Source of the DNA: an uncultured Clostridia bacterium
Lineage (GTDB): Bacteria > Bacillota > Clostridia > Oscillospirales > Ruminococcaceae
Direction: 5' to 3'
Length of the DNA: 64,000 nucleotides
NCBI GenBank assembly: GCA_947625375.1
Contig: CANQOC010000005.1
Span: 45,630 to 109,629, forward strand
The translations under genes and the position numbers were made by a program. Below the pieces are notes generated by a model that made no database searches, was not told the origin of the DNA, and worked only from the letters and a program-made list of their open reading frames with translations. Shown one piece after another: positions 12,721-55,075 of this stretch (its first letter is position 1; each line of letters begins with the position of its first letter).

Positions 12721-12855
12721 GCACAAATTTATAAAAGTTGCAAGTAGTAGTTAGAGAATAGTAGTCAGTAGTTAGTTATTCTTTTAAAACCGCAAGCATG
12801 AGCGGTGACAAAGCTGCTGTTTACAAAATCCGGCATCTATCCTCTAATCATCTAA

Positions 12856-13245
12856 CTATCTATCCTCCAAATGCAGTCTCTTTTTCAGTCCCTCCTGCAA
12901 TACTCCGGAGAAGTTTATGTGTGCGGATTCGGCCGCTTCGTTGAGCCATGACGGAACGGTGAGCGTTTTCTTTACCGAGCGGGTGTCGTGCGCACGCTTA
13001 TAGGAAAGGTCGTCATAGTCGATTATCATCATGAAATCCGGCGCTTCGACCTTAATCTCCTCTGGACGGGACGGAGCGGGAACAGACTTAAGTCCGTCAA
13101 GATAGAGTCCGACGGCGTCGCGAATCATCTCCACCGCCTCGGCGACGGTTTCGCCCTGTGAAAAACAGCCGTCAAGGTCGGGCACGCTCACCGAATAACC
13201 CTCGGCTTCGGGGTGAAAAACTGCGGGATAATATAGCTTTTTCAT
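12856..13245 (-). CDS. hicB: HicB-family antitoxin
   Basis: N-terminal YPAVFHPEAEGYSVSVPDLDGCFSQGETVAEAVEMIRDA (HicB fold) and a C-terminal RHH-like DNA-binding part. Follows hicA. Confidence 0.88.
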   Translation of the reverse strand: MKKLYYPAVFHPEAEGYSVSVPDLDGCFSQGETVAEAVEMIRDAVGLYLDGLKSVPAPSRPEEIKVEAPDFMMIIDYDDLSYKRAHDTRSVKKTLTVPSWLNEAAESAHINFSGVLQEGLKKRLHLEDR

Positions 13246-13474: not shown

Positions 13475-13675
13475 TTTATAATCCCCACCTTTCAGCGATT
13501 ATATTATAGCACGTATTATACGTACTGTCAAGCGATTTAGAGGTTAGATGATTAGAAGATAGATAGTTAGAGGATAGAAATCCTATCCTCCACTTTTATA
13601 AACTATAAACATTTTCGCGCTCTATCTTCTATCCTCTAACTCTCTAATCATCTGTCCTCTCAATTCTGCCAATCT

Positions 13676-15499: not shown

Positions 15500-16393
15500 T
15501 TCCTTAAAAAGCATATTCCGATATAAGTGTAGCATATTTATCGAAAGTTGTCAACTTTTAGAGGGAAAAGGTATTCGCTTCGCTCATGCTATTTTCAGTC
15601 ACCCCTCCCCGACCCTCCCCTCGAGGGGAGGGGGTGTGGAGGAAACTTACACTAATATAATATAGCAAAGTGTACGTCTCACCTTTCTAAAAGGTATTCG
15701 CTGCGCTCATGCTATTATAGACTCCCTCCCCCTTCCCCTCCCACATGGGAGGGGGTTGTATTGCTCATACTTTACAGCGCCGCCTAACGGCGGGGAAAAT
15801 TTGCGTGATGTCATACTTCACTAAATGCGTTCACTTTGTGGCGGACGTAAATGTATCACCTTTGACAACTTCTCCGTCCATTTTCTTCCACACCCCCTGC
15901 CCCCTCTCCCTCAGTGAGAGAGAGGGGGTTCCACCCCACACCCGGCCGTTCACGTTCGTGAACGGCGCGACCACTCCCCTCGAGGGGAGTGGTACTTGGC
16001 ATGGAGGATACTTTGGCAGGTTTTAGAAAAGTTGCGTGCTGACGAACTGCCTTGCTATAAGGAGTCCGCCTGCGGCGGACGCTCCTCGCGTCACTCGGTC
16101 GTGACGCGTTTCGCTGGTTCCCCCACCCCCTATCCCCCTCCCCGACGGGGAGGGGGATACAACACCAAAGTTTGGCTTGCCGCCTATCGGCGGGGAAAAT
16201 TTGTACGACAACTTGACATGCTCAAGGCGGTTCCCCTGCTTCTGACATCTGACCTCTCACTTCTGTTCTCTGAAAGTGCGCAATCCGGCGCGCTTGCGCT
16301 CAGCGAATTCCTTTTACAAGTCCGTACTCCCCCTCTCCAATCGCTCACGCCCCCATCTCCACCCTCTATCCTCCAACTTTCCAATCATCTATC
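15500..16393. repeat. Mosaic intergenic block of hairpin modules
   Basis: Contains aaggtattcgcttcgctcatgct plus ccctcccctcgaggggaggg modules. 16061-16300 is colinear with 21171-21415. Pyrimidine tracts at 16229-16272 and 16345-16394. Confidence 0.9.
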
Positions 16394-16422
16394 TTGACAA
16401 CCTCGAAAAAGTCCGCTATAAT
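16394..16422 (+). promoter_or_regulatory. Sigma-A type promoter of the alaS leader
   Basis: TTGACA (16394-16399), 17 nt spacer, TATAAT (16417-16422). Confidence 0.75.
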
Positions 16423-20236: not shown

Positions 20237-20782
20237 ATGGCAGATTATTACACCTTACACGTCGCGGGACTTGAGCGTCAGCTTGCAATCTGTCCGGTGA
20301 ACGAGCACCTTGATATCGCGGGGTTCATCATGTTTTCCGACGTTGAGCTTACGGTCGCGTGCGCGAGGGAGCTTTTAAAAAAGGTCCCGGAGTTCGACGT
20401 AATCGTCACCGCCGAGTCGAAGGGAATTCCGCTCGCTTATGAGATGGCGAGGCAGGCGGGAAACGGCATGAAATACATTGTCGCGAGGAAGATGCCGAAG
20501 CTCTATATGCGCGACCCGATTTCGGTCGACGTCCGCTCAATCACCACCGCCGCCGACCAAAAGCTTTGGCTCGACAGGAACGAGGCGGACTATATGAGCG
20601 GGAAGAGGATACTCATCGTCGACGACGTCGTCTCGACCGGAGAGAGCCTTGAAGCGCTTTTGAAGCTCATCTCGCACACCGGCGGCGCAGTCGCCGCACA
20701 GGCCGCTGTTCTCGCCGAGGGCGACGCCGCGAACCGCGACGACCTGATTTACCTCGAAAAGCTGCCGCTGTTCTTTAAGTAG
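20237..20782 (+). CDS. Phosphoribosyltransferase-family protein (purine/adenine PRTase-like)
   Basis: PRPP-binding loop ILIVDDVVSTGESL. SD aaaggag lies upstream of the ATG at 20237. Confidence 0.8.
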   Translation: MADYYTLHVAGLERQLAICPVNEHLDIAGFIMFSDVELTVACARELLKKVPEFDVIVTAESKGIPLAYEMARQAGNGMKYIVARKMPKLYMRDPISVDVRSITTAADQKLWLDRNEADYMSGKRILIVDDVVSTGESLEALLKLISHTGGAVAAQAAVLAEGDAANRDDLIYLEKLPLFFK

Positions 20783-20785
20783 AGC

Positions 20786-21797
20786 AAAAATAAAAGTTTT
20801 CGATTGAACCTTTTTCAAAAGGTTCACGAGAGTCCAGAGGCGAGCAGCCTCTGGTCGCGACCGCAGTCGCGAAATCCTATACGAAGTGCGCTCCGCAAGG
20901 GGTGAATTGAAAAAGCAGTCCGGTGGACTGTTTTTTCAAGAGGGGACGACCTGTAAGAGAGGGCGTCCCCTTTATATTTCCGTCATGCGACAGCATGGCG
21001 GCACCTTGCGTCAATGCGGCGTCTGCACAAACTTATCCCGCCGACAGGCGGCACTCTCGCCTTTAGCTATGCAGAGCCCCCTCCCATGTGGGAGGGGATT
21101 GCTTTGTCAAAGCTTAGTGAGCCGCCCGACTGCGGGAGAAATTTGTGACAGTACCGTACGCTGCTAAAAAGGAGTCCACCTAACGGCGGACGCTCCTCGC
21201 GTCACTCGGCCGTGACGCGTTTCGCCTGTTCCCCCACCCCCTACCCCCTCCCCGCCGGGGAGGGGGTTATGCGTCGCTAAGCTTTTGATTGCCACCTGAC
21301 GGCGGGGAAAAATTGAGCGGCAACAAGACTTGCTCAAGGCGGGTCTGTTGGCTCTGATATCTGACAATTTCAATTCTGCTCTCCGACCGGGCGCAGTCCG
21401 GCGCGCTTCGCGCGCAAACGAAAGGAGCAGGAAAACTCCCTCCGGAGTTTTCCTGCTCCTTTCGTTTCGGCAGCCTTCGGCTGCCGCGGACTGCGCCCTC
21501 ATGGGAGCTGAAGCCTAAGCTATGCGTTCCCCCTTCCCATGTGGGAAGGGGGACAGGGGGATAGGAGTTTATAAATAGCATGAGCGCAGCGAATTCCTTA
21601 TAGCAAGGTATGACACCGCGCTCATGTTTTATTTTACCTGCGCAAGTGTCCTCCCCGCCGGTACCACTCCCCTCGAGGGGAGAGCAGTCAGAATACAGAT
21701 ATCAGAAGTTAGAAATCAGATTCTATCCTCTATCTTCCATCATCTAATCTCTAACTTCTGACATCTGACTTTCTCACTTCTGTTCTCTGTCAGCGGC
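20786..21797. repeat. Mosaic intergenic block of hairpin modules (about 1 kb)
   Basis: Starts with aaaaataaaagttttcg plus palindrome 20805-20826. Shares ordered modules with 24262-24650 and 45165-45690. Carries nested hairpin 21391-21497 and ends in an inverted purine/pyrimidine tract pair at 21690-21795. Confidence 0.9.
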
Positions 21798-24220: not shown

Positions 24221-24261
24221 GATACTCTCCTCACATAAAAATAAAGTTTGATTGACCTGTT

Positions 24262-24650
24262 GCAAAAATAAAAGTTTTCGGTCCACCCTTTTTCAAAAGG
24301 GTGGCGAGAGTCCAGAGGCGAGAAGCCTCTGGCCGCGACCGCAGTCGCGGAACACTTGCGAAGCGAAGCGCAGGAGGGTAGTCAAAACAATTCGGTGAAT
24401 TGTTTTGACGTAGGGAACCCTCGCCGGGGGTTCCCTACTTGCTGAGCGATGAGCGAAGCAAGCAAAAAGCACAGTTATGCTCAAATATCCCCCGCCGCAA
24501 GGCGGCACTGCAAGGGCGTCCCCTTATGATACCGTCATGCGTCAGCATGACGGCACCTCATGGGTACAAAGATTCCCCCGTTCTTCCCTCTCCCCTACCC
24601 GCTCAGATGTCGGAAGTCCAATTTCTATCTTCTATCCTCTAACCTCTATC
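24262..24650. repeat. Mosaic intergenic block of hairpin modules
   Basis: aaaaataaaagttttcg plus palindrome 24283-24304, ccagaggcgagaagcctctgg, ccgtcatgcgtcagcatgacgg, and a terminal pyrimidine tract at 24612-24650. Confidence 0.9.
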
Positions 24651-25263
24651 TCACAAAATTAGTAAACGTCATCTTCCCCTTTTCGGGCAGACCGAATTTC
24701 TCCTTGCCGAGAGCGATTGAGCGGATTAAAAAGCTCATGTTCTCGGCGAGCATCCTGACGGTTTCGATGCCCTCGGCGTCCTGCTCGGCCTCGCCCTTCG
24801 ACATTCCGTGGACCATGTTCCAATAGCGGCTCGAGGCGACCGGCATTCCGCTGATGGTGAAATACTTGTTGAGGACGTCGAACGTCGCGGTACAGCCGCC
24901 CCGCCTCGCGACGGCAACGGCGGCGCCGACCTTCATCGTCTTGTCGAAGGAGGTGCTGTAAAAAAGTCTGTCCAAAAAGCTGATGATATTGCCGTTCGGC
25001 GAGGCGTAATAGACCGGACTCGCGGCGACAAGTCCGTCCGCGCGTTCAAAAATCTCCGCGGCTCTGTTGACGGAGTCGTCGAAGACGCATTTTCCGGTCT
25101 GACCGCACTTCCCGCAGGCGATGCAGCCTCTGATATCCTCCCCGCCGATTTCGAGGATTTCGGTGTCAATCCCGTTTTTGGCGAAGACCTCGGCCATGTT
25201 TTTAAGCGCAATCGAGGTGTTCCCGCCGCGTCGCGGACTTCCGTTTATCATCAGAACATTCAT
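24646..25263 (-). CDS. NADPH-dependent FMN reductase / iron-sulfur flavoprotein-like
   Basis: MNVLMINGSPRRGGNTS and a Cys cluster CIACGKCGQTGKC. ATGA start/stop overlap with the upstream flavodoxin gene. Confidence 0.85.
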   Translation of the reverse strand: MNVLMINGSPRRGGNTSIALKNMAEVFAKNGIDTEILEIGGEDIRGCIACGKCGQTGKCVFDDSVNRAAEIFERADGLVAASPVYYASPNGNIISFLDRLFYSTSFDKTMKVGAAVAVARRGGCTATFDVLNKYFTISGMPVASSRYWNMVHGMSKGEAEQDAEGIETVRMLAENMSFLIRSIALGKEKFGLPEKGKMTFTNFVR

Positions 25264-25754: not shown

Positions 25755-25989
25755 ACAAATCCTTCCTTTCGGCTTTTTATTTAATTGTATACTCTGCACG
25801 GGAGTTTGTCAAGTTAGAGGGTTGGAGGATAGATGATTAGAGGGTAGAAGATAGAGCGTTGGAGGATAGAAGTCCCCAAAAAATGACCAATCACAAAATA
25901 ATCCTGCAAATTGGACGGGGTTATGCAGGGTGTACACCTTAAAAGCGCGGTAATTATGAATATTTGGAGATTATGTTATTCATTTTCGG

Positions 25990-31265: not shown

Positions 31266-31353
31266 GAAAAGGTGAAGCGGGACAACGCATGAGGGCGGGG
31301 TTCCGCTTTTTTGATTTCTAACTTCTATCCCCCAACCCTCTACCCCTCCATTA

Positions 31354-31382
31354 TTGACATTCCCTCCCCTTTGTGGTAAAAT
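31354..31382 (+). promoter_or_regulatory. Sigma-A promoter of metY-metA
   Basis: TTGACA (31354-31359), 17 nt spacer, TGgTAAAAT extended -10 (31374-31382). Confidence 0.65.
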
Positions 31383-40751: not shown

Positions 40752-41069
40752 TCATCTCATCGTGACAAAGCCGAATTCGTCTTTTCCGATAGAGTCAGGC
40801 TTCGGGGGTTCTTTTTCCTCATGCTTTGGGCGGAACATGGACAGCCAAAAGTCTCCGCACGCTTCCAAAAAATCGTCAAGGATTTCAATTCCTCCGGCGG
40901 CGCCTTCGATTTCCTCGTCAGAAATCTCTCCGCTCCTCGCGTTTATCTTAGAGAAAAACTTCTCGGCGTCTTCCGGCGCGAGGTCCTTGCCGTTTTCCTT
41001 TGCAAGCTCGATAAGCTCGCCGGCGGACTTTGCCGCCCTTGCCCTTTTAATGAATTCTTCTTGTGTCAT
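40752..41069 (-). CDS. Array A member A9: Nif11-type-leader precursor
   Basis: Leader MTQEEFIKRARAAKSAGELIELAKENG...SGEISDEEIEGAAGG. 45-aa core IEILDDFLEACGDFWLSMFRPKHEEKEPPKPDS... Confidence 0.8.
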   Translation of the reverse strand: MTQEEFIKRARAAKSAGELIELAKENGKDLAPEDAEKFFSKINARSGEISDEEIEGAAGGIEILDDFLEACGDFWLSMFRPKHEEKEPPKPDSIGKDEFGFVTMR

Positions 41070-41092
41070 AATATTATCTCCTTTCGGTATTT

Positions 41093-41410
41093 TTATCTCA
41101 TCGTGACAAAGCCGAATTCGTCTTTTCCGATAGAGTCGGGCTTCGGGGGTTCTTTTTCCTCATGCTTTGGGCGGAACATGGACAGCCAAAAGTCTCCGCA
41201 CGCTTCCAAAAAATCGTCAAGGATTTCAATTCCTCCGGCGGCGCCTTCGATTTCCTCGTCAGAAATCTCTCCGCTCCTCGCGTTTATCTTGGAGAAAAGC
41301 TTCTCGGCGTCTTCCAACGCGAGGTTATTGCCGTTTTCCTTTGCAAGCTCGATAAGCTCGCCGGCGGACTTTGCCGCCTTTAATGTTTTAATAATTTCTT
41401 CGTTAGCCAT
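41093..41410 (-). CDS. Array A member A8: Nif11-type-leader precursor (paralog of A9, identical core)
   Basis: The C-terminal two thirds are identical in protein to A9, while the N-terminal leader is diverged. 341-bp tandem duplication. Confidence 0.8.
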   Translation of the reverse strand: MANEEIIKTLKAAKSAGELIELAKENGNNLALEDAEKLFSKINARSGEISDEEIEGAAGGIEILDDFLEACGDFWLSMFRPKHEEKEPPKPDSIGKDEFGFVTMR

Positions 41411-41458
41411 AATAATATCCTCCTGTAAATAAGTATCGGCTTTACTGTCCGAAGATTC

Positions 41459-41782
41459 TCAGTTCTTAATGATAACCTTCTTATTACGCGGATCCAACAG
41501 CTGGCAGAGCAGCATATCGGGTTCATGACCCAGATGTCTGCAGGTTCCGCAGCACCCCTGAAGAATAACCTTGGCTTCGCCGTTGGTAATGCCCTTTTGG
41601 CGCGCGTAAAGGGAAATATTCATTTCGCTCGGAGTGCTGTCGCCCGGCTGATACTGTCCGATAATACACTTGGTGTCAAGCTTAATGACGGGATAGTCGA
41701 GAGAGCCTTCGCCCCCGCCCGCCGCGGCGCTGAGCTTAACGTCGTTAATTTCGCTGTGCTTAATAATCTCTTCATCTGCCAT
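41459..41782 (-). CDS. Array A member A7: short GG-leader precursor with 84-aa core
   Basis: Leader MADEEIIKHSEINDVKLSAAAGG. The core ends ...LQGCCGTCRHLGHEPDMLLCQLL... Confidence 0.72.
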   Translation of the reverse strand: MADEEIIKHSEINDVKLSAAAGGGEGSLDYPVIKLDTKCIIGQYQPGDSTPSEMNISLYARQKGITNGEAKVILQGCCGTCRHLGHEPDMLLCQLLDPRNKKVIIKN

Positions 41783-41823
41783 AATATCGCCTTCTTTCTT
41801 AACGATTAAATTAACCCGGGTTA

Positions 41824-42159
41824 TTAGTTTAGATATAACGGTCCTTCATATCCGCAGTCGTCACAGTAAATCATCTTTGTGCCGTCGGGAGCGTCGTGAA
41901 TAAAAATCCATGCCGACGACGTCTGACCGCAAATCGGGCATTTTTCGGGAGTCCAAGGCGGCGCCGCGGGAGTGGGAGCTTTCGGCTCTTTCTGCTTTTT
42001 CGGCTTAGAGTCCTTTCCACCGTAAAACAAACCGCCGATAGATTCCTTGACCCAGTCAACTACTCCCCCGCCGGCGACATTGTCGAGATTGTCGTCCGAG
42101 ATTTCGTGCGGCTCGGCGGCCTCGATTTTTTCTTCTTTTTTGATTTCCTTTTCAGACAT
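41824..42159 (-). CDS. Array A member A6: GG-leader peptide with zinc-ribbon-like core
   Basis: Leader ...HEISDDNLDNVAGG. Core GVVDWVKESIGG, a Lys/Pro-rich linker, then CPICGQ...CDDCGYEGP. Confidence 0.75.
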   Translation of the reverse strand: MSEKEIKKEEKIEAAEPHEISDDNLDNVAGGGVVDWVKESIGGLFYGGKDSKPKKQKEPKAPTPAAPPWTPEKCPICGQTSSAWIFIHDAPDGTKMIYCDDCGYEGPLYLN

Positions 42160-42205
42160 AATATTATCTCCTTTAAATAAATTTCGTCAGTCGGATATGC
42201 GGTCA

Positions 42206-42451
42206 TCAGACCGAGGACAAGGGCCCCTCATATCCGCACAGCAAGCATTTAATCATAACCGTGCCGTCATCGGCCGCGGTGCCGAAAACAAAAACATTGT
42301 CCACAGGCTTATGGCAAAAGGGGCAGAGGTCGGGTTCCTTCGGCTTCTCCCAAGGATAATGCAAATCCGCCTTAATCCAATCATCGATTGCTCCCCCTCC
42401 CGACGCCTTTTCGAGAGCGCCGTCCGAGAGCTCGCTGTTAAGCCTTTTCAT
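42206..42451 (-). CDS. Array A member A5: GG-leader peptide with zinc-ribbon-like core
   Basis: The ATG at 42451 follows SD aaggagga. Leader MKRLNSELSDGALEKASGG. Core GAIDDWIKADL...CPFCHK...CLLCGYEGP. Confidence 0.75.
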   Translation of the reverse strand: MKRLNSELSDGALEKASGGGAIDDWIKADLHYPWEKPKEPDLCPFCHKPVDNVFVFGTAADDGTVMIKCLLCGYEGPLSSV

Positions 42452-42474
42452 TGCAGCTCCTCCTTCGCGGGTCA

Positions 42475-42657
42475 TCAAAGCCTGCACATGCCGTTGCCGC
42501 AATATTGTCTGCAGTTGTCACAGGACTTATCTTTACTGCCATACTTCCCATTAAAAAGGTCGCAGTAATGCTCGGGCGGGCAGTCGTGACCCCCGTCGAC
42601 CCCGACGCTCTTTCCGCCGGTAACCTTCTCGGTTTCAATGTCTTTAGATTCTTTCAT
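42475..42657 (-). CDS. Array A member A4: bacteriocin-type GG-leader, 6-Cys core
   Basis: MKESKDIETEKVTGG then KSVGVDGGHDCPPEHYC...SCDNCRQYCGNGMCRL. Confidence 0.8.
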   Translation of the reverse strand: MKESKDIETEKVTGGKSVGVDGGHDCPPEHYCDLFNGKYGSKDKSCDNCRQYCGNGMCRL

Positions 42658-42682
42658 TGTAAAGTCCCCTTTCTTCAGTCAA

Positions 42683-42868
42683 TCAAAGTCTGCACCTGTT
42701 GTTGCCGGAATACGCCTGACAGTTGTCACAGGACGTATCCTTCTTCCACTTATCCTTCGCGCAAAATCCTCCGCAGGTATGCGCGGGCGGGCAGTCGTGA
42801 CCCCCGTCGACTCCGACGCTCTTTCCGCCGGTTGCTTCCTCAATCTCGAAATCATTAAGCTCTTTCAT
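42683..42868 (-). CDS. Array A member A3: bacteriocin-type GG-leader, 6-Cys core
   Basis: MKELNDFEIEEATGG then KSVGVDGGHDCPPAHTCGGFC...SCDNCQAYSGNNRCRL. Confidence 0.8.
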   Translation of the reverse strand: MKELNDFEIEEATGGKSVGVDGGHDCPPAHTCGGFCAKDKWKKDTSCDNCQAYSGNNRCRL

Positions 42869-42891
42869 TGTAAATCCTCCTTAAAATAATG

Positions 42892-43110
42892 TTATCGTGC
42901 ATGGTTGCACAGGTCTTTTCCGTCGTTGTTTTTTCCGCAATGGTGACGGCAGTTGTAACAGGAATCCGGGTCTCCCGGAAGTCTTCCGCTGCCCTCTTTC
43001 TCGTGATAATACTTGCATATCTTGCTTTCGGGACAGGTCCAATAGCCGTAGACGTTGACGGTTCTTCCGCCGGTGACTTCCTCAATCTCGAAATCATTAA
43101 GCTCTTTCAT
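42892..43110 (-). CDS. Array A member A2: bacteriocin-type GG-leader, 6-Cys core
   Basis: MKELNDFEIEEVTGG then RTVNVYGYWTCPESKIC...GDPDSCYNCRHHCGKNNDGKDLC. Confidence 0.8.
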   Translation of the reverse strand: MKELNDFEIEEVTGGRTVNVYGYWTCPESKICKYYHEKEGSGRLPGDPDSCYNCRHHCGKNNDGKDLCNHAR

Positions 43111-43127
43111 TGTAATTCCTCCTTAAA

Positions 43128-43355
43128 TTACGGTTCCCACCAAGCTAATGTGCACAGGTTTTCTCCCTTTTGATTATATCCGCAGAAGAAGCGGCAGTAG
43201 ATGCAGGAATCAGGGTCTCCCGGCTGTTTGACCATGCCATCCTTAAATAAATAATGCTTACACATACGGCTTTCGGGACCAACCCAATAACCTATCGGGT
43301 TGACACTTCTTCCTCCGGCGGCCGTCTCGAGTTCCTTGTCGTTAATTTCTTTCAT
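43128..43355 (-). CDS. Array A member A1: bacteriocin-type GG-leader, 5-Cys core
   Basis: MKEINDKELETAAGG then RSVNPIGYWVGPESRMC...GDPDSCIYCRFFCGYNQKGENLC. Confidence 0.8.
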   Translation of the reverse strand: MKEINDKELETAAGGRSVNPIGYWVGPESRMCKHYLFKDGMVKQPGDPDSCIYCRFFCGYNQKGENLCTLAWWEP

Positions 43356-43405
43356 TGTAATTTCTCCTTTCAGCGATTTAGCTCGCGTTGTTTTCTTGTA
43401 CTTCC

Positions 43406-44334: not shown

Positions 44335-45162
44335 ATGTTAAAAACGCTTTTCCCGAACGGACTGAAAAAGGCGTTCACGCTTAGCTATGACGACGGCTGT
44401 TATGATGATATCAGACTTTTGGGCATGATGTCAAGCCGCGGGATTCGCGGGACGTTCAACATTAGCTCGGGAATAACCCGTCCCGAGGGGCAGGAATTTA
44501 TCGGCGCTTGGGAGAGAATGACGCCGTCGGAGCTTGAAAACTATGACCGCGAGGGAATCGAGGTCGCGGTTCACGGCGTCCGCCACCGCGATTTTACGAA
44601 AATTTCGGAGTCCGAGCTTATCTATGAGATTATGGCGGACAAGAGCGCGATTGAGCGCCGGTTTTCGAGGGTCATACGCGGCGCGGCGTACCCCTATGGC
44701 AGCTTTGACGACCGCTCGGTCGAGGCGCTGAGGCGCTGCGGGATAAAATACTGCCGGACAGTCTGGTCCGACGATTCGTTAAAAATGCCGGCGGACTGGC
44801 TTCGGCTGCGCCCGAGCTGTCACCACAGCGACCCGAAGCTCGGCGAGATGACCGAAAGGCTTTTGGGCGAGGATGAGCCGGAGAGGAGAATGCTCTATGT
44901 CTGGGGGCATACGCCCGAGTTCCGGCGGGACAGCAACTGGGAGCTGATGGAGAGGCTGCTCGACCGCGTCGCGGGGCGGAAAGACGTCTGGTACGCGACG
45001 AACATCGAGATTTGCGAGTATGAGCTTGCGGCGCGTGCGCTCGAATACTCCGCCGACGGCGGGTACGTCTTTAATCCGACGTCGCTCGAAATCTGGCTCG
45101 AGCGCAACGGCGAGCCGATGAGCGTCAAGCCGAACGAGACCGCCGAAGCGTGGAGAGAATAA
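44335..45162 (+). CDS. Polysaccharide deacetylase-family protein
   Basis: NodB-like FTLSYDDG motif and HGVRH. The ATG at 44335 follows SD agaggag. Confidence 0.8.
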   Translation: MLKTLFPNGLKKAFTLSYDDGCYDDIRLLGMMSSRGIRGTFNISSGITRPEGQEFIGAWERMTPSELENYDREGIEVAVHGVRHRDFTKISESELIYEIMADKSAIERRFSRVIRGAAYPYGSFDDRSVEALRRCGIKYCRTVWSDDSLKMPADWLRLRPSCHHSDPKLGEMTERLLGEDEPERRMLYVWGHTPEFRRDSNWELMERLLDRVAGRKDVWYATNIEICEYELAARALEYSADGGYVFNPTSLEIWLERNGEPMSVKPNETAEAWRE

Positions 45163-45164
45163 AA

Positions 45165-45690
45165 ACTAAAAGTTTTCGCTCAAGCCTTTTTCAAAAGGCT
45201 TGCTGTGCAAGCCGGTTTTGTTCCTGCTCGACCGCCCTCGCGATACCGAACCGTTTCGGTTGTCTTGCAGACAAAACCGGCGTGCACCGGTCCAGAGGCG
45301 AGTAGCCTCTGGTCGCGCTCCGCAGAGCGCGAAATCCCCTACGAAGTGCGCTCCGCAAGGGGTGAATTGCAAAAAACTATCCTGTGGATAGTCGATTACG
45401 ACAAAATGAGGGCAAAGGCGAAGCCTTTGCTTAGGCGTCGCTGACGAAAGTACGACACTGTAGTCATTTGGGCGACGCCTTGAGGCCACTGCAAGAGAGG
45501 GCCTCCCCTTATGATTCCGCCGTGCGACAGCGCGGCGGCACCTCGTAGTCACTCGTGCGACGCCTTGGGACCCCTCGCCGGGGGTCCCCTGCTTGCCGAA
45601 CGATGAGTGAGGCAAGTGAAAAGTCCGGCGATGTGCAAGCCTTCCCCGTCATGCGACAGCATGACGGCACCATCGTCCCCACACAAAAAA
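45165..45690. repeat. Mosaic intergenic block of hairpin modules
   Basis: aaaaactaaaagttttcg plus palindrome 45181-45202, ccagaggcgagtagcctctgg, tgcgctccgcaaggggtgaattgc, ccgtcatgcgacagcatgacgg. Colinear with the 20.8 kb and 24.3 kb blocks. Confidence 0.9.
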
Positions 45691-47997: not shown

Positions 47998-48274
47998 TTT
48001 CGGCACCTCCTAAAGTATTTGCCCGCACGGGTGATGCGGACTTTGTTATTGCCTCCCTCCCTGACTCGGCGGAAAAGTCACCGCCGGTCTGCGGGCGCAC
48101 TAAAAAAGACCCCGCAAAGAGGTAAAGCTATTTTATCACGCCTCCTCCCGCTTGTCAAGCGTTTGGAGTAAAAATTTTTTAGATGATTAGATGATTAGAA
48201 GATAGAAGATGGTAATCTTGACGGTTGCGGGATGATATGATAAAATGATGAAAAAACAGAGAGAGGGTCGCGGA

Positions 48275-52557: not shown

Positions 52558-52989
52558 ATGAACGAAATCATTAAAAAAGCAAGAGCGGCAAAGTCGGCCG
52601 GAGAGCTCATCGAGCTTGCGAAAGCCAACGGCAAGGACCTCACCAAAGAACAGGCCGAGATGTTCTTCAAAAGCCTCAGCCAAGGCGGCGAGATATCCGA
52701 CGAGGAGCTTTCGAGCGCGGTCGGCGGGTGCGGCGGTTCGGAAATATCCTGGGAGAAGAGCCTCGGCTTCTCGAGAATCGATTGCCGAAAGGGCGACTTC
52801 GTCGGGGGACACACCTTTGCGGCGAAGACGTATTGGAAGTGCGCCATCTGCGGGGGACACATCTACTGCGACGGTCCTTTGACCGCATACACCAACTGCA
52901 CCCACCTCAAGCAGCATAAGGTCCTCGGCTGTAACAACTGCTTTTTCAACGAGAACGGAAAATGCAACTACTATGACGACAGCCTTTGA
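52558..52989 (+). CDS. Array B member B1: Nif11-type-leader precursor, 86-aa 9-Cys core
   Basis: Leader MNEIIKKARAAKSAGELIELAKANG...GEISDEELSSAVGG. The core starts CGGSE, contains WKCAIC and ends GCNNCFFNENGKCNYYDDSL. Confidence 0.8.
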   Translation: MNEIIKKARAAKSAGELIELAKANGKDLTKEQAEMFFKSLSQGGEISDEELSSAVGGCGGSEISWEKSLGFSRIDCRKGDFVGGHTFAAKTYWKCAICGGHIYCDGPLTAYTNCTHLKQHKVLGCNNCFFNENGKCNYYDDSL

Positions 52990-53019
52990 TTAAGGGCAGG
53001 GTTCTGAGGAGGTATTATC

Positions 53020-53445
53020 ATGAACGAGGAAATTTTAGCAAAGGCAAAGGCGGCAGGTTCGCCGGAGGAGCTTTTAAAGCTTGCTCACGAAAACGGCATG
53101 TCCTACTTTACCGAGGAGAACGCGAACGCTTATTTCAACGTCCTGCACCAGAGCGGCGAGATTACGGACGAAGAGCTTGAAAAAGCGGCGGGAGGCTGCA
53201 AGAGCAACAAGAGGCGTGTCGTTACGCTCGGATACATCTGCCCCGTAAACTACGGAGGCTGGAAGTGCAAGGACTGCCTTGCGCCGAACAACGTCTGCAA
53301 GTGCTGGCTACAGCCGCCGGAGCTTTCGCGCAAGTTCCACGCGTCAATCTTCGCGTGGTGCGCCGATACATGCAGCACCTGCGCGTGGTGTTCATATGAA
53401 AGCGGCATATGGTACTGCAACAACCCCGAAGCAAACGAACTGTAA
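53020..53445 (+). CDS. Array B member B2: Nif11-type-leader precursor, 82-aa 11-Cys core
   Basis: Leader ...AAGSPEELLKLAHENG...SGEITDEELEKAAGG. The core starts CKSNK, contains WKCKDC and CSTCAWCSYESGIWYCNNP. Confidence 0.8.
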   Translation: MNEEILAKAKAAGSPEELLKLAHENGMSYFTEENANAYFNVLHQSGEITDEELEKAAGGCKSNKRRVVTLGYICPVNYGGWKCKDCLAPNNVCKCWLQPPELSRKFHASIFAWCADTCSTCAWCSYESGIWYCNNPEANEL

Positions 53446-53465
53446 TCCCGAAGGGAGAATTTAAC

Positions 53466-53891
53466 ATGTTTAACGAAGAAATGATTAAAAAAATCCGCGG
53501 ACTCGGCTCGCCCGAGGAGCTTATTGAGTTCGGAAAGGAAAACGGCGTCGCAATCAGCAAGGAGACGGCGGAGAAGTATTTTAACTCGCTTCACGGCAGC
53601 GGCGAAATCTCGGACGAGGAGCTTGAGAACACCGCCGGCGGCTGCGGCGGAGGCTATTCGCCGTCGATATATAAGCAATGCCCCGAATGCGGGACAAATA
53701 TCGCGATGAAGGACTTCCGCGACGTCAAGGTTATCGTCAGCGACGAGGTTCTCCACCAGTGGGGATATCCGACCGGCGTATGCCCGAAATGCAACGTCCG
53801 CTATGCTTATGTCCGCGCGCTGAATATGCTCTATCCCGTATCGGTTGACGAAAAGGGCACTTGGGTCATAAGACCGCCGCACAGATATTAA
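53466..53891 (+). CDS. Array B member B3: Nif11-type-leader precursor, 82-aa core with two CxxC pairs
   Basis: The ATG at 53466 follows SD aagggaga. Leader ...SGEISDEELENTAGG. Core CGGGYSPSIYKQCPEC...GVCPKC. Confidence 0.8.
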   Translation: MFNEEMIKKIRGLGSPEELIEFGKENGVAISKETAEKYFNSLHGSGEISDEELENTAGGCGGGYSPSIYKQCPECGTNIAMKDFRDVKVIVSDEVLHQWGYPTGVCPKCNVRYAYVRALNMLYPVSVDEKGTWVIRPPHRY

Positions 53892-53903
53892 AGGAGCTTT
53901 ATC

Positions 53904-54398
53904 ATGAACGACGAAATTTTAGCAAAGGCAAAGGCGGCGGGGTCGCCGGAGGAGCTTTTGAAGCTGGCTCACGAAAACGGCATGTCCTACTTTACCGAGG
54001 AGAACGCAAGGGCGTATTACAGCCTTATGCACCAAAGCGGTGAGATATCCGACGAGGAGCTTGAAAACGCGGCGGGAGGCTGTCGGAAGGGCGGGTATAG
54101 GGTTGTCTCGCGCGGAAATGTATGCGGCTTGGGGCAGTCGGTGGCAATCAACGGCTTCTATGCGTTCACTGAGTGGAAATGCAAGACCTGTAAAGAAATG
54201 CCGGGAGCCGGACTTAGCTTTGAAGACTGGTATAATGTTCACAGGTCATGCAGCTGCAACCGCAGCATATTAGACTCTGTTGCATTTTCGCTCGGCGTAT
54301 CCGTCAACTTCGGGGCGGTCGGAGTCTGCGGCTCCTGCGATTGGTGCAATTACGTCGACGGCGTTTGGATTTGCACAAACCCGCGTGATGCCGAGTGA
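53904..54398 (+). CDS. Array B member B4: Nif11-type-leader precursor, 105-aa 10-Cys core
   Basis: The leader is nearly identical to that of B2. The core starts CRKGG, contains WKCKTC and CGSCDWCNYVDGVWICTNP. Confidence 0.8.
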   Translation: MNDEILAKAKAAGSPEELLKLAHENGMSYFTEENARAYYSLMHQSGEISDEELENAAGGCRKGGYRVVSRGNVCGLGQSVAINGFYAFTEWKCKTCKEMPGAGLSFEDWYNVHRSCSCNRSILDSVAFSLGVSVNFGAVGVCGSCDWCNYVDGVWICTNPRDAE

Positions 54399-54415
54399 AC
54401 ATAACTGAGAAAGCC

Positions 54416-54547
54416 ATGAAAGAAGAAATCATTAAAAACGGCGAGATTTCAGACGACGAGCGTGAAAGCGCGGTCGGCGTCCTCGACTACAGGCGCTTCT
54501 CGGAGGTGCAGATTATCGAGGTCTATCACGCATACGGCGGCTTCTGA
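54416..54547 (+). CDS. Array B member B5: 43-aa ORF with a collapsed or decayed leader (remnant or possible signalling peptide)
   Basis: Not in the ORF track. MKEEIIKNGEISDDERESAVGVLDYRRFSEVQIIEVYHAYGGF. Retains the leader ends (EEIIK and GEISDDE..SAVG) but has GV in place of GG. Weak SD. Confidence 0.4.
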   Translation: MKEEIIKNGEISDDERESAVGVLDYRRFSEVQIIEVYHAYGGF

Positions 54548-54660: not shown

Positions 54661-54852
54661 ATGAAGATGGCAGATTCAAAGTACACAAGCGTGAGATACT
54701 GTCCTCATCTCGGGCACAACGTGATTATCGAGCAAAGGATTCGCGGCGGGGTTATTTGTCTCGAGTGCCTCAACCGTGCGGACTGCGGGTATTCGGAGGA
54801 AGGCTGCCGGAATAGACTGATAGAGGATAGACGGTTAGAGGATAGAAGTTAG
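54661..54852 (+). CDS. Small leaderless Cys-rich protein (63 aa)
   Basis: SD aaagggag lies upstream of the ATG at 54661. MKMADSKYTSVRYCPHLGHNVIIEQRIRGGVICLECLNRADCGYSEEGC... The last ~10 codons and the stop lie in a purine tract. Confidence 0.5.
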   Translation: MKMADSKYTSVRYCPHLGHNVIIEQRIRGGVICLECLNRADCGYSEEGCRNRLIEDRRLEDRS

Positions 54853-55075
54853 AGAAGTGCGTCATGCGGGTTTGATGAGACATCGCACCCCGGGCGCAGC
54901 CGGCGCGCGGAGCGCGCGAGGGTATAAAAGGAAAACTCCTGCCGGAGTTTTTCTTTTTATACCCTCCGGCCGCCTTTCGGCGGCCGCGGGCTGCGCCCGT
55001 CGGAGAGCGAAGTCAGGAGGGTTGATGCAGGAACTCACTCCCCCGCCCCCGATTTTCTGACAATCTGTACTCTAA
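54815..55075. repeat. Purine tract plus nested-hairpin module (third copy)
   Basis: Purine tract gatagaggatagacggttagaggatagaagttagag. Nested hairpin at 54892-54998, homologous to 3521-3623 and 21391-21497. Confidence 0.85.

What the first reader, a model, noticed from the sequence alone, without database searches (positions are those of the whole stretch)
20786..21010. A composite multi-hairpin element recurs at three loci with conserved loops and compensatory stem changes
Blocks starting at 20786, 24262 and 45165 share the same module order. First comes aaaa[ac]taaaagttttcg and then a 22-nt palindrome whose centre ctttttcaaaag is constant. Its arms differ with perfect compensation: tgaacc/ggttca (20805-20826), ccaccc/gggtgg (24283-24304) and caagcc/ggcttg (45181-45202). 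The later modules behave the same way. One hairpin has a conserved GGTG/TGTG loop and unrelated stems (cagtcc-ggtg-ggactg at 20916-20930, actatcc-tgtg-gatagt at 45376-45392, gtcaaaacaattc-ggtg-aattgttttgac at 24381-24409). Others are cgcgac-cgca-gtcgcg versus cgcgct-ccgcag-agcgcg, and ccgtcatgc-gaca-gcatgacgg versus ccgccgtgc-gaca-gcgcggcgg. Covariation that preserves pairing across copies argues that the structure (RNA or single-stranded DNA hairpins) is what is maintained or recognised. The layout resembles REP/BIME or BOX mosaic elements, but I do not recognise the family.
Basis: seen in the sequence. Interest (0 to 1): 0.78.

Follow-up and report, generated by a model that had tools for sequence, protein, structure and literature searches.

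The report
Modular hairpin repeat of gut Clostridia
The three blocks are copies of an uncatalogued, roughly 200-base non-coding repeat built from a fixed series of hairpins; it is scattered between the genes of many gut Clostridia (order Oscillospirales) and is swapped piecemeal between copies, so hairpin stems differ yet always stay paired.

Summary
A covariance model finds exactly three copies in the window, all on the + strand: 20784-20973, 24262-24439 and 45160-45433. A pattern scan plus the model finds more than 150 further copies in Oscillospirales genomes. These include Ruminococcus, Angelakisella, Acutalibacter, Caccousia and the isolate Butyricicoccus pullicaecorum DSM 23266.

Six helices are about 94-96% paired, every modelled pair shows two-sided changes, and shuffled and slid controls fall far below. 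Loops, linkers and loop-proximal pairs are conserved, while a 3-4 bp stretch in each stem varies freely.

No Rfam family, phage, plasmid, viral contig or paper matches. I found no transposase, terminal inverted repeat or target duplication.

Strains of the window's own species show that the element is a dispensable cassette. One allele of locus 1 has only a classical terminator. Other alleles swap single hairpins, and the swapped versions are identical to those at other loci.

Best reading: a BOX/BIME-like mosaic repeat under selection for single-strand folding. It is reshuffled by short-patch exchange between copies and probably acts in cis as a structured 3'-end or spacer cassette. Whether the folded form is RNA or DNA, and how new copies arise, remain open.

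The parts
20784..20802 (+). Locus 1, M1: conserved A/T-rich head GCAAAAATAAAAGTTTTCG. It starts 2 nt after the stop codon (TAG, 20780-20782) of the phosphoribosyltransferase gene.
   Evidence: GTTTTCG is invariant in the family, although that is partly a consequence of the search pattern.
20805..20826 (+). Locus 1, M2: hairpin tgaa-CCTTTTTCAAAAGG-ttca.
20834..20854 (+). Locus 1, M3: hairpin CCAGAGGC-GAGCA-GCCTCTGG.
20855..20872 (+). Locus 1, M4: hairpin TCGCGAC-CGCA-GTCGCGA.
20873..20906 (+). Locus 1, M5: conserved linker with GCGCTCCGCAAGGGGTGAA. It has two possible short helices and a Shine-Dalgarno-like G-run.
20907..20939 (+). Locus 1, M6: long hairpin TTGAAAAAGCAGTCC-GGT-GGACTGTTTTTTCAA. 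It has the shape of a bidirectional intrinsic terminator.
20941..20971 (+). Locus 1, M7: hairpin AGGGGACGACCT-GTAAGAG-AGGGCGTCCCCT followed by TTTATATTT.
20980..21001 (+). Locus 1, M8: hairpin CCGTCATGC-GACA-GCATGGCGG, with one T.G wobble, followed by CACC.
24237..24257 (+). Locus 2: truncated remnant of an older M1 plus the 5' arm of M2 (aaaaataaagtttgattgacc). It is absent from allele L133.
24262..24439 (+). Locus 2: full copy, variant B. Modules are M1 24262-24280, M2 24283-24304, M3 24312-24332, M4 24333-24350, M5' 24351-24381, M6 24382-24408 and M7' 24410-24438. It lies antisense between two minus-strand genes: the FMN reductase-like gene ends at 24646 and recG starts at 24222.
24532..24553 (+). 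Locus 2, M8: hairpin CCGTCATGC-GTCA-GCATGACGG.
45160..45433 (+). Locus 3: copy whose M1 begins on the TAA stop codon (45160-45162) of the polysaccharide deacetylase gene. Modules are M1 45160-45178, M2 45181-45202, M3 45292-45312, M4 45313-45332, M5 45333-45366 and M6 45371-45392. M6 has lost its T-run. The model's alignment of its last modules beyond 45392 falls on the unrelated insert.
45205..45287 (+). Locus 3: 83-nt foldback of another repeat family, with 17-bp inverted ends GTGCAAGCCGGTTTTGT. It sits between M2 and M3. It is present in the window and L124 and absent in L123 and L125-L128.
45393..45481 (+). Locus 3: 89-nt insert of other hairpin modules between M6 and M7. It replaces the T-run of M6 and the outer part of the 5' arm of M7.
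45482..45538 (+). Locus 3: shortened M7 (GAGGCC-ACTGCAAGAGAG-GGCCTC, 45482-45505) and M8 (45517-45538).
45567..45667 (+). Locus 3: further modules shared with locus 2. These are the variant-B M7' hairpin at 45567-45589, ttgccgaacgatgagtgaggcaag at 45593-45616, and a second M8 at 45646-45667.

Best explanation
The blocks are copies of a non-coding, non-autonomous, modular intergenic repeat. It has a head (M1-M2-M3), an optional M4, and a tail (M5-M6-M7, plus M8 in this clade). The family is dispersed in many copies through genomes of gut Oscillospirales.

Each module is a hairpin. Its loop, loop-proximal pairs and flanking linkers are conserved, while a 3-4 bp stretch of stem may take any sequence as long as it stays complementary. 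What is maintained is therefore folding of one strand (shown).

The copies are dispensable cassettes and not individual genes. They sit with M1 against a gene end and can take the place of a native terminator. They are reshuffled by short-patch exchange between copies that carries both arms of a hairpin together, which explains the compensated differences between the three window copies (shown from strain alleles).

Inferred: when co-transcribed with a neighbouring gene, the element acts in cis as a highly structured 3'-end or spacer cassette. M6, and sometimes M7, would work as intrinsic terminators in either direction, and the other hairpins as barriers to exonucleases or read-through. On this view the family persists as selfish-to-domesticated DNA in the manner of pneumococcal BOX/SPRITE or enterobacterial BIMEs.

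The conserved loops and linkers imply a sequence-specific host factor that is not identified. How a new locus is first seeded is unknown.
For: Family and structure:
- Exactly three copies occur in the window.
The model found 131 and 41 matches in its two searches; the 41 include the three window copies and same-locus strain alleles.
- Covariation is strong.
- Both strands fold far better than shuffles, with z-scores of -9.1 and -8.6 as RNA and -9.8 as DNA.

Not a gene-like or autonomous element:
- There is no Rfam hit.
- There is no sigma-70-like promoter at the three loci.
- Neighbouring genes are unrelated housekeeping genes with no recurrent protein family.
- No copy has an ORF between head and tail.

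Dispensable cassette:
- Alleles L144, L147 and L151 of locus 1 have a 141-nt spacer containing only a classical terminator (aaaaagcagacg-gaag-ccgtctgctttttt).
- The window allele has lost that terminator and carries about 555 nt starting at the stop codon.
- Spacers at loci 2 and 3 vary from 315 to 425 nt and from 288 to 576 nt, between flanking genes that are 96-99.7% identical.

Exchange between copies:
- Allele L123 of locus 3 carries an M2 segment identical to the M2 of window locus 1.
- L125, L127 and L128 carry the arms seen at locus 2.
- L126 is a chimera of the two arm types.
- L133 has variant A where the window has variant B.

Terminator-like M6: an A-run, a GC core and a T-run are flagged by the scan and conserved across the family.

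Position and orientation:
- The M1 end lies nearer a gene boundary than the other end, with median distances of 87 and 282 nt.
- There is a mild bias to follow a co-oriented gene, 57 cases against 34. This is similar to the roughly 61% reported for BOX, RUP and SPRITE (PMC3049150).
Against: - Loops and linkers are conserved across several bacterial families. A mere terminator or spacer role does not require this.
- Variant B lacks a T-run after M6 and M7', and the locus 3 copy has lost its T-run. Termination therefore cannot be the universal function.
- About a third of copies lie antisense to local transcription.
- G.T mismatches outnumber A.C about 2:1 on the element's + strand, and this holds whatever the direction of neighbouring genes (33:15, 26:13, 24:9 and 24:17). 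That points to an intrinsic strand-specific intermediate, which a passive cis role does not explain.
- There is no expression data.
- The seeding mechanism is unknown. The one empty/filled comparison shows a replacement, with 52 nt lost, rather than a clean insertion.
Confidence: 0.5

Rival explanations
1. The family consists of strand-specific structured RNAs, either 3'UTR-derived or independently made small RNAs, or a cis-regulatory RNA. The conserved loops and linkers would be read by a conserved RNA-binding protein or by the ribosome. On this view the DNA-level shuffling is incidental.
For: - G.U-compatible mismatches exceed A.C 2:1 on the + strand in every context.
- The + strand RNA fold is 11 kcal/mol more stable than the - strand fold.
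- M5 can form CGCUCC-GCAA-GGGGUG, which has a GNRA-type loop and two invariant G.U pairs; three one-sided changes keep the pairing.
- M1 UUUUCG can pair with the purine-rich linker after M2 in about 90% of cells, mostly through U.G pairs.
- M5 carries AGGAGG or AAGGGGTGA, which resemble a ribosome-binding site.
- 63% of copies follow a co-oriented gene.
Against: - No promoter is conserved upstream of M1, and in stop-adjacent copies the upstream sequence is coding.
- About a third of copies can only be read antisense by neighbouring transcription.
- In allele L133, recG must be transcribed through the element in antisense, because only 25 nt separate M1 from the ATG.
- G.U makes up only about 2% of pairs, no more than other mismatches. 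That is low for a selected RNA.
- The G.U-dependent helices show no two-sided covariation.
- The element is dispensable at a locus within one species.
Confidence: 0.22
2. The element is a single-stranded-DNA hairpin element that is moved or recombined by a structure-specific enzyme encoded elsewhere in the genome. Candidates are a REP/RAYT-like HUH tyrosine transposase or an attC/integrase-like recombinase that recognises loops and unpaired linkers on one strand.
For: - Conserved loops and linkers with sequence-free but complementary stems are the signature of folded-strand recognition, as in attC sites. This rests on established knowledge of integrons, not on a test here.
- The + strand preference is independent of transcription.
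- Stems are 97% Watson-Crick.
- There are many 3-nt loops and GCGAAGC-type mini-hairpins. From my own knowledge these are unusually stable in DNA; this was not tested here.
- Single hairpins are replaced as units, and the chimera L126 has its junction inside the M2 core.
- Other repeat families insert right after M2 in several species.
Against: - There is no orientation bias relative to GC skew (44:46) or to the majority gene strand (42:48). IS200/IS605-type single-strand transposition produces such a bias.
- There is no GTAG/CGTC tag and no R/L boxes.
- No Y1 transposase-like ORF appears in about 0.95 Mb around more than 130 copies. That query was a remembered IS200 TnpA sequence, so the test is weak.
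- There is no match in plasmids, phages or viral contigs.
- Whole genomes could not be searched.
Confidence: 0.2
3. The palindromes are functionless and are kept perfect by a mutational mechanism, namely template switching within quasi-palindromes during replication, combined with ectopic gene conversion. The compensation would then carry no information about selection.
For: - Both arms are co-converted.
- G.T is tolerated no better than other mismatches.
- Within a species the element diverges at 5-13% in stems and 5-7% elsewhere, while flanking genes are 96-99.7% identical (about 0.3-4% divergent).
- Template-switch correction of quasi-palindromes is an established bacterial mutation pathway (my own knowledge).
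Against: - Such a mechanism does not explain exact conservation of the 14-nt core, the loops and the 20-nt M5 linker across several bacterial families.
- It does not explain the fixed order and orientation of six different hairpins.
- It does not explain the G.T over A.C asymmetry.
Confidence: 0.06

Closest known systems
BOX elements (boxA-boxBn-boxC) and SPRITE of Streptococcus pneumoniae (Croucher et al. 2011, PMC3049150)
   Same: - The host is also a Firmicute.
- These are short non-coding intergenic repeats in many copies.
- They are built from modules in a fixed order, some of which are optional.
- They are predicted to fold tightly.
- No transposase is encoded.
- They vary between strains.
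- There is a mild bias to lie downstream of co-oriented genes.
- SPRITE looks like a terminator, as M6 does.
   Different: - There is no sequence relationship, and the host order is different.
- BOX modules are conserved in sequence, stems included, and boxA and boxC pair with each other like terminal inverted repeats.
- Here six separate local hairpins lie in series, loops are conserved, and stems are hypervariable but compensated.
- There is no complementarity between the two ends.
REP elements, BIMEs and REPINs with their RAYT transposases (Enterobacteria, Pseudomonas)
   Same: - Both are extragenic palindromes clustered into mosaic intergenic arrays.
- Both are highly polymorphic between strains.
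- Copies occur in both orientations.
- Proposed roles include termination, mRNA stabilisation and protein binding.
   Different: - REPs carry a GTAG or CGTC tag and alternate in orientation.
- REPs have conserved stems within a genome and are specific to a species group.
- Here there is no tag, all modules are co-oriented, stems vary, and a 21-nt motif is identical across several families.
- A RAYT gene could not be looked for genome-wide.
attC sites of integrons
   Same: Short conserved motifs combine with a stem whose sequence is free but whose pairing is kept. Recognition is of one folded strand.
   Different: There are no R''/L''/L'/R' boxes, no adjacent gene cassettes and no integrase. 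The elements lie between ordinary housekeeping genes.
Rho-independent (intrinsic) terminators
   Same: M6 has an A-run, a GC-core hairpin and a T-run. The element stands where a classical terminator stands in the empty allele.
   Different: Terminators have no conserved loops or linkers and do not come as an ordered set of six hairpins. Variant B and the locus 3 copy lack the T-run.

Membership tests
REP/BIME (RAYT-associated) | Short extragenic imperfect palindromes in high copy number | tested here: met
   There are three copies in 64 kb. Single MAGs have at least 10-13 exact-pattern hits even in the truncated scan. All copies are intergenic.
REP/BIME (RAYT-associated) | Conserved GTAG or CGTC tetranucleotide at one foot of the hairpin | tested here: not met
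   No module has GTAG. Only an inconsistent NGTC precedes M4 (CGTC, GGTC, TGTC or AGTC). The feature definition is taken from PMC3733652.
REP/BIME (RAYT-associated) | Copies of one palindrome in alternating orientation (BIME or REPIN doublets), with stem sequence conserved within a genome | tested here: not met
   Six different hairpins lie in one orientation. Stems differ between the three window copies and between alleles.
REP/BIME (RAYT-associated) | A cognate single-copy RAYT (Y1/HUH) gene in the genome | not testable with these tools
   Whole genomes could not be fetched. A tblastn search with a remembered IS200 TnpA sequence found nothing below E = 0.38 in about 0.95 Mb, which is a weak test.
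MITE | Terminal inverted repeats and a target-site duplication | tested here: not met
   The ends AAAAGTTTTCG... and ...AGGGCGTCCCCT are not inverted repeats. The empty versus filled alleles of locus 1 show replacement of 52 nt and no duplication.
IS200/IS605-derived element (PATE) | Orientation bias with respect to replication, and a related TnpA/TnpB-bearing master copy | tested here: not met
   Orientation against GC skew is 44:46 and against the gene strand 42:48. No head...ORF...tail arrangement was found, and there was no TnpA-like hit.
BOX (pneumococcal) | boxA and boxC ends that pair with each other around tandem boxB units | tested here: not met
   Predicted and covarying helices are all local hairpins. 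No tandem unit is present.
Integron attC | R''-L''...L'-R' boxes next to a gene cassette, with an integrase nearby | tested here: not met
   The arms of M2 are variable 4-mers and no RYYYAAC/GTTRRRY boxes were seen by eye. Neighbouring genes are housekeeping genes.
Intrinsic terminator | GC-rich hairpin immediately followed by a T-run | tested here: inconclusive
   The feature is met by M6 at locus 1 and in most variant-A copies. It is not met at locus 2 or locus 3.
Any Rfam 15 RNA family | Score at or above the family's gathering threshold | tested here: not met
   Only two tRNAs were found in the window. With permissive thresholds nothing credible overlapped the element.

The most novel reading that the evidence does not exclude
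The element may be the substrate of an undescribed structure-reading system conserved across Oscillospirales. One possibility is a chromosomal, cassette-exchanging hairpin array handled on one strand by an unknown nuclease or recombinase. That would be a mobile-DNA mechanism with no inverted repeats, no target duplication and no replication-strand bias. The other possibility is a very abundant new class of multi-hairpin RNA read by a conserved RNA-binding protein. The 3-4 bp variable windows in each stem would then be tolerated or address-like positions.
Probability: 0.25. Interest if true: 0.85.

Novelty: new variant of a known kind. Interest (0 to 1): 0.62.

Why it matters
Oscillospirales are among the most abundant and least tractable gut bacteria. 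This repeat occupies a visible share of their intergenic DNA, breaks metagenome assemblies, and makes spacers between nearly identical genes differ by hundreds of bases between strains. That gives three practical uses:

- It is a strain-typing marker.
- It is a source of assembly and annotation errors, including spurious ORFs inside the elements.
- It probably modifies the expression of neighbouring genes.

Conceptually, it combines exact conservation of loops and linkers across several bacterial families, freely varying compensated stems, and hairpin-by-hairpin exchange between copies. This combination is not how REP, BIME or BOX elements behave. It implies a conserved factor that reads a folded strand. 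The model built here would let anyone take a census of the family and search for that factor by co-occurrence.

Tried and rejected
- **Known RNA family.** Rfam at gathering and at permissive thresholds gave nothing.
- **Phage, plasmid or viral origin.** There was no match.
- **Literature.** Searches with six core strings found no paper. Keyword searches found only REP and BOX papers and nothing on Clostridia.
- **Associated transposase.** Clustering 399 neighbouring ORFs gave no recurrent family; the largest cluster was spurious ORFs inside the elements. A tblastn search with a remembered IS200 TnpA found nothing, and no head-ORF-tail master copy was found.
- **Own promoter.** There is no sigma-70-like site. 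By eye, the reverse strand of M2-M1 reads TTGAAA-N17-TTT(T/A)AT, which lacks the A at position 2 of the -10 hexamer and would be pointless in stop-adjacent copies. I left this as a remark only.
- **Known operator sites.** I compared CodY, CcpA, Spo0A, LexA, IHF and parS consensus sequences from memory and none fits the M2 core. This is not a formal test.
- **Protein coding.** An ORF of 93 codons runs across M5-M8 at locus 1. Module indels and compensated stem changes rule out a conserved reading frame.
- **Replication-strand bias.** None was found.
- **GCGAAGC mini-hairpin enrichment.** It is not significant over the whole window: 29 matches observed against 22 expected.
- **Look-ups that failed.** Two protein look-ups failed because of the wrong start codon, and one malformed structure string was rejected.
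Full report

- Each block begins with A-rich M1 (GCAAAAATAAAAGTTTTCG or TAAAAACTAAAAGTTTTCG).
- M2 follows after 2 nt. It is a 22-nt palindrome with a constant 14-nt centre, CCTTTTTCAAAAGG, and 4-nt arms: tgaa/ttca, ccac/gtgg and caag/cttg.
- Then come M3 (CCAGAGGC-GAGNA-GCCTCTGG) and M4 (a CGCA-loop hairpin).
- M5 is a conserved linker containing GCGCTCCGCAAGGGGTGAA.
- M6 is a long hairpin with a GGT or TGT loop and A/T-run feet.
- M7 is a hairpin with a GCAAGAG-type loop, and M8 is a hairpin with a GNCA loop.

The centre of M2 and the M3 pattern occur only at these three places, far above shuffle expectations. A self-comparison shows the same mosaic of shared segments.

The flanks are as follows.

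- Locus 1 follows the stop codon of a phosphoribosyltransferase gene. It opens a 1-kb non-coding stretch that ends at a convergent acetyltransferase gene.
- Locus 2 lies between two minus-strand genes, an FMN reductase-like gene and recG, so it is antisense to local transcription.
- Locus 3 starts on the stop codon of a polysaccharide deacetylase gene and faces the convergent rplA.

**2. The family outside the window**

Almost all are gut or rumen MAGs of Oscillospirales: Ruminococcus, Ruminiclostridium, Angelakisella, Acutalibacter, Caccousia, Gallacutalibacter and Butyricicoccus. They include the isolate B. pullicaecorum DSM 23266. There are also two contigs of one Cloacimonadota MAG, one Rikenellaceae MAG and one probably misbinned archaeal MAG.

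Downstream of the searched motif, the same modules recur in the same order, with visibly different stems. Many copies have only the head (M1-M3). Others lack M4, or carry a variant tail (variant B, as at window locus 2), or have other hairpin modules inserted.

In several MAGs, two copies face each other 440-640 bp apart, at the two edges of one intergenic region.

**3. Structure and covariation**

I aligned 17 full copies with MAFFT and wrote six helices by hand. On that alignment 95.6% of cells pair. Twenty-eight of 57 pairs change on both sides, no shuffle out of 500 reaches this, and sliding the partner by 1-3 columns drops pairing to 38-59%. RNAalifold on its own recovers M2, M6 and M7.

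A covariance model built from this alignment (R1) finds exactly the three window copies. It also finds 131 matches in L001-L100 and 41 more in the remaining sources, the latter including the three window copies and same-locus strain alleles. On the 131 matches, 94.2% of cells pair against 69.4% in shuffles, and all 56 pairs show two-sided changes. That alignment is fitted to the model, which favours pairing.

For M2 I counted pairs directly without any alignment. The four variable pairs are all Watson-Crick in about 125 of 131 copies, across at least 14 arm types. Pairing stops abruptly at the fifth position.

Variation is confined to a 3-4 bp window in each stem. Loops, loop-proximal pairs, outer pairs such as TCGC...GCGA in M4, and the linkers are nearly invariant.

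**4. What it is not**

- No Rfam family matches at curated or permissive thresholds.
- Nothing similar is found in 2.9 million viral contigs, 72,556 plasmids or 50,697 phages.
- No paper in the library contains any of six core strings.
- Neighbouring genes are unrelated housekeeping genes, and no protein family recurs next to the element.
- No Y1 transposase-like ORF appears in about 0.95 Mb around the copies. That query sequence came from my memory, so the test is weak.
- No copy has an ORF between head and tail.
- There are no terminal inverted repeats.
- The three loci have no sigma-70-like promoter.

**5. Strain alleles show what the element does in evolution**

Exact-protein look-ups retrieved the same three loci from other strains of the window's species. 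Flanking genes in these strains are 96-99.7% identical.

*Locus 1.* Three assemblies (L144, L147, L151) have a 141-nt spacer that contains only a textbook bidirectional terminator after the stop codon. L143 has that terminator plus about 370 nt of other repeats. The window allele has lost the terminator (52 nt) and instead carries about 555 nt that begin at the stop codon with M1-M8. Even the stop codon differs: TAG in the window against TAA. There is no target duplication. The element is therefore dispensable, and it stands where a terminator stood.

*Locus 3.* The spacer ranges from 288 to 576 nt. The M2 arms are caag, tgaa, tgag or ccac in different strains. M6 and M7 stems differ at 2-3 positions per arm, always compensated, while the linkers between them are identical. 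Whole modules come and go.

*Locus 2.* One strain (L133) has a variant-A tail where the window has variant B. The window allele also keeps a truncated older M1-M2 remnant in front of the full copy.

The swapped pieces are identical to the versions at other loci of the window. L123 at locus 3 carries a 54-nt stretch identical to locus 1. L125, L127 and L128 carry the locus 2 arms. L126 has the 5' arm of the locus 2 type and the 3' arm of the locus 1 type, with the junction inside the conserved core.

The compensated differences between copies are therefore moved around by short-patch exchange between copies, and both arms travel together. The large pool of complementary variants must have arisen earlier.

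**6. Strand, orientation, RNA or DNA**

Orientation is unrelated to GC skew (44:46) or to the majority gene strand (42:48).

Relative to neighbouring genes, all four arrangements occur. With cleaner gene calls, 57 copies follow a co-oriented gene and 34 lie upstream of a divergent one. The M1 end is nearer a gene boundary than the other end, with medians of 87 and 282 nt.

Stems are about 97% Watson-Crick. G.T mismatches (56) equal other mismatches (64) but exceed A.C (21). This 2:1 excess on the element's + strand holds whichever way local transcription runs.

Both strands fold far better than shuffles. The + strand RNA fold is 11 kcal/mol more stable than the - strand fold.

Two further + strand-only helices depend on G.U pairs. 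They are M5 (CGCUCC-GCAA-GGGGUG) and the pairing of M1 UUUUCG with the linker after M2. Both are possible in 90-100% of cells but show no two-sided covariation.

I conclude that one strand, the + strand, is the one that must fold. These data do not decide whether it folds as RNA or as DNA.

**7. Most likely mechanism**

*Shown:*
- This is a multi-copy modular repeat under constraint for single-strand hairpins.
- It is dispensable at a given locus.
- It is reshuffled by exchange between copies.
- It can occupy the position of a native terminator.

*Inferred:*
- It acts in cis on transcripts that run into it. M6, and sometimes M7, would act as a terminator in either direction, and the other hairpins as barriers.
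- It persists like BOX/SPRITE or BIMEs, somewhere between selfish and domesticated.
- The conserved loops and linkers imply a host factor that reads them.

The main weaknesses are listed under evidence against. Variant B has no T-run, loops are conserved for no known reason, the strand asymmetry is unexplained, and the seeding mechanism is unknown.

The rivals and my weights are:
- strand-specific RNA family, 0.22;
- single-stranded-DNA element handled by a HUH or recombinase enzyme, 0.20;
- purely mutational palindrome maintenance, 0.06.

**8. Comparison and novelty**

In kind, the element is closest to pneumococcal BOX/SPRITE (PMC3049150) and to BIMEs. It fails the defining features of REP/BIME, MITE, IS200/IS605 derivatives, BOX and attC (see the membership table).

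What sets it apart is an ordered, co-oriented series of six different local hairpins. A 21-nt motif is identical across several bacterial families. Loops are conserved while stems are hypervariable and compensated, and hairpins are exchanged one at a time. I class it as a new variant of a known kind, namely mosaic intergenic hairpin repeats, apparently undescribed.

Noticed in passing
window 21392-21497, 3521-3626, about 54900-55000: This is another structured repeat family of about 110 nt. An outer stem, GGCGCAGTCCG...CGGACTGCGCC, encloses three hairpins (gcgcgc-ttcg-gcgcgc; aggagcaggaaaactcc...ggagttttcctgctcct; cggcagcc-ttcg-gctgccg), which resembles a four-way junction. Stems differ between copies with compensation.
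   Followed up: partly
window about 21345-21725: A block of about 380 nt made of other repeat modules is absent from alleles L144, L147 and L151. It is flanked by the direct repeat TTCTATCCT, which occurs once in the empty allele. This looks like a MITE-like insertion with a 9-bp target duplication.
   Followed up: partly
window 25814-25874, 16365-16409, 31324-31360, 21722-21790, 24617-24653, 3644-3694, 12836-12872, 13529-13664, 48179-48225, 54812-54853: Pyrimidine-rich repeats with a period of about 7 nt (TCTATCC/TCTAACC, purine-rich on the other strand) lie at the edges of intergenic regions. In at least three cases they sit immediately upstream of a TTGACA box. The same repeats follow the hairpin element in other genomes.
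   Followed up: no
window 2949-3369 and 15566-15742: Tandem repeats of 122 nt occur as four copies and two copies in two intergenic regions. Part of the unit also occurs inverted at 21529-21609.
   Followed up: no
window 45205-45287; L007, L112, L124: An 83-nt foldback with 17-bp inverted ends (GTGCAAGCCGGTTTTGT) is inserted directly after M2 in the window. Related foldbacks lie after M2 in L124 (same species) and in two loci (L007, L112) of another MAG. In the window's species it is present in some strains and absent in others.
   Followed up: partly
window 41046-43371 (minus strand) and 52685-54489: There are two sets of tandem small paralogous ORFs. The second set repeats a GEISDEEL..A.GGCGG-like motif about every 440 nt, which is reminiscent of precursor peptides of ribosomally made natural products.
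   Followed up: no
L120-L122 (contigs carrying window gene 20237-20782): Three independent short-read contigs end exactly 38 nt after the stop codon, which is inside M2. The repeat therefore breaks assemblies. Spurious ORFs of more than 100 codons also run through the elements.
   Followed up: no
window 20907-20939 compared with L144 810-950: M6 of the locus 1 copy shares GAAAAAGCAG...CTG(C)TTTTTTCA with the native terminator found in the empty allele. This could be chance or a trace of how the cassette was joined.
   Followed up: no
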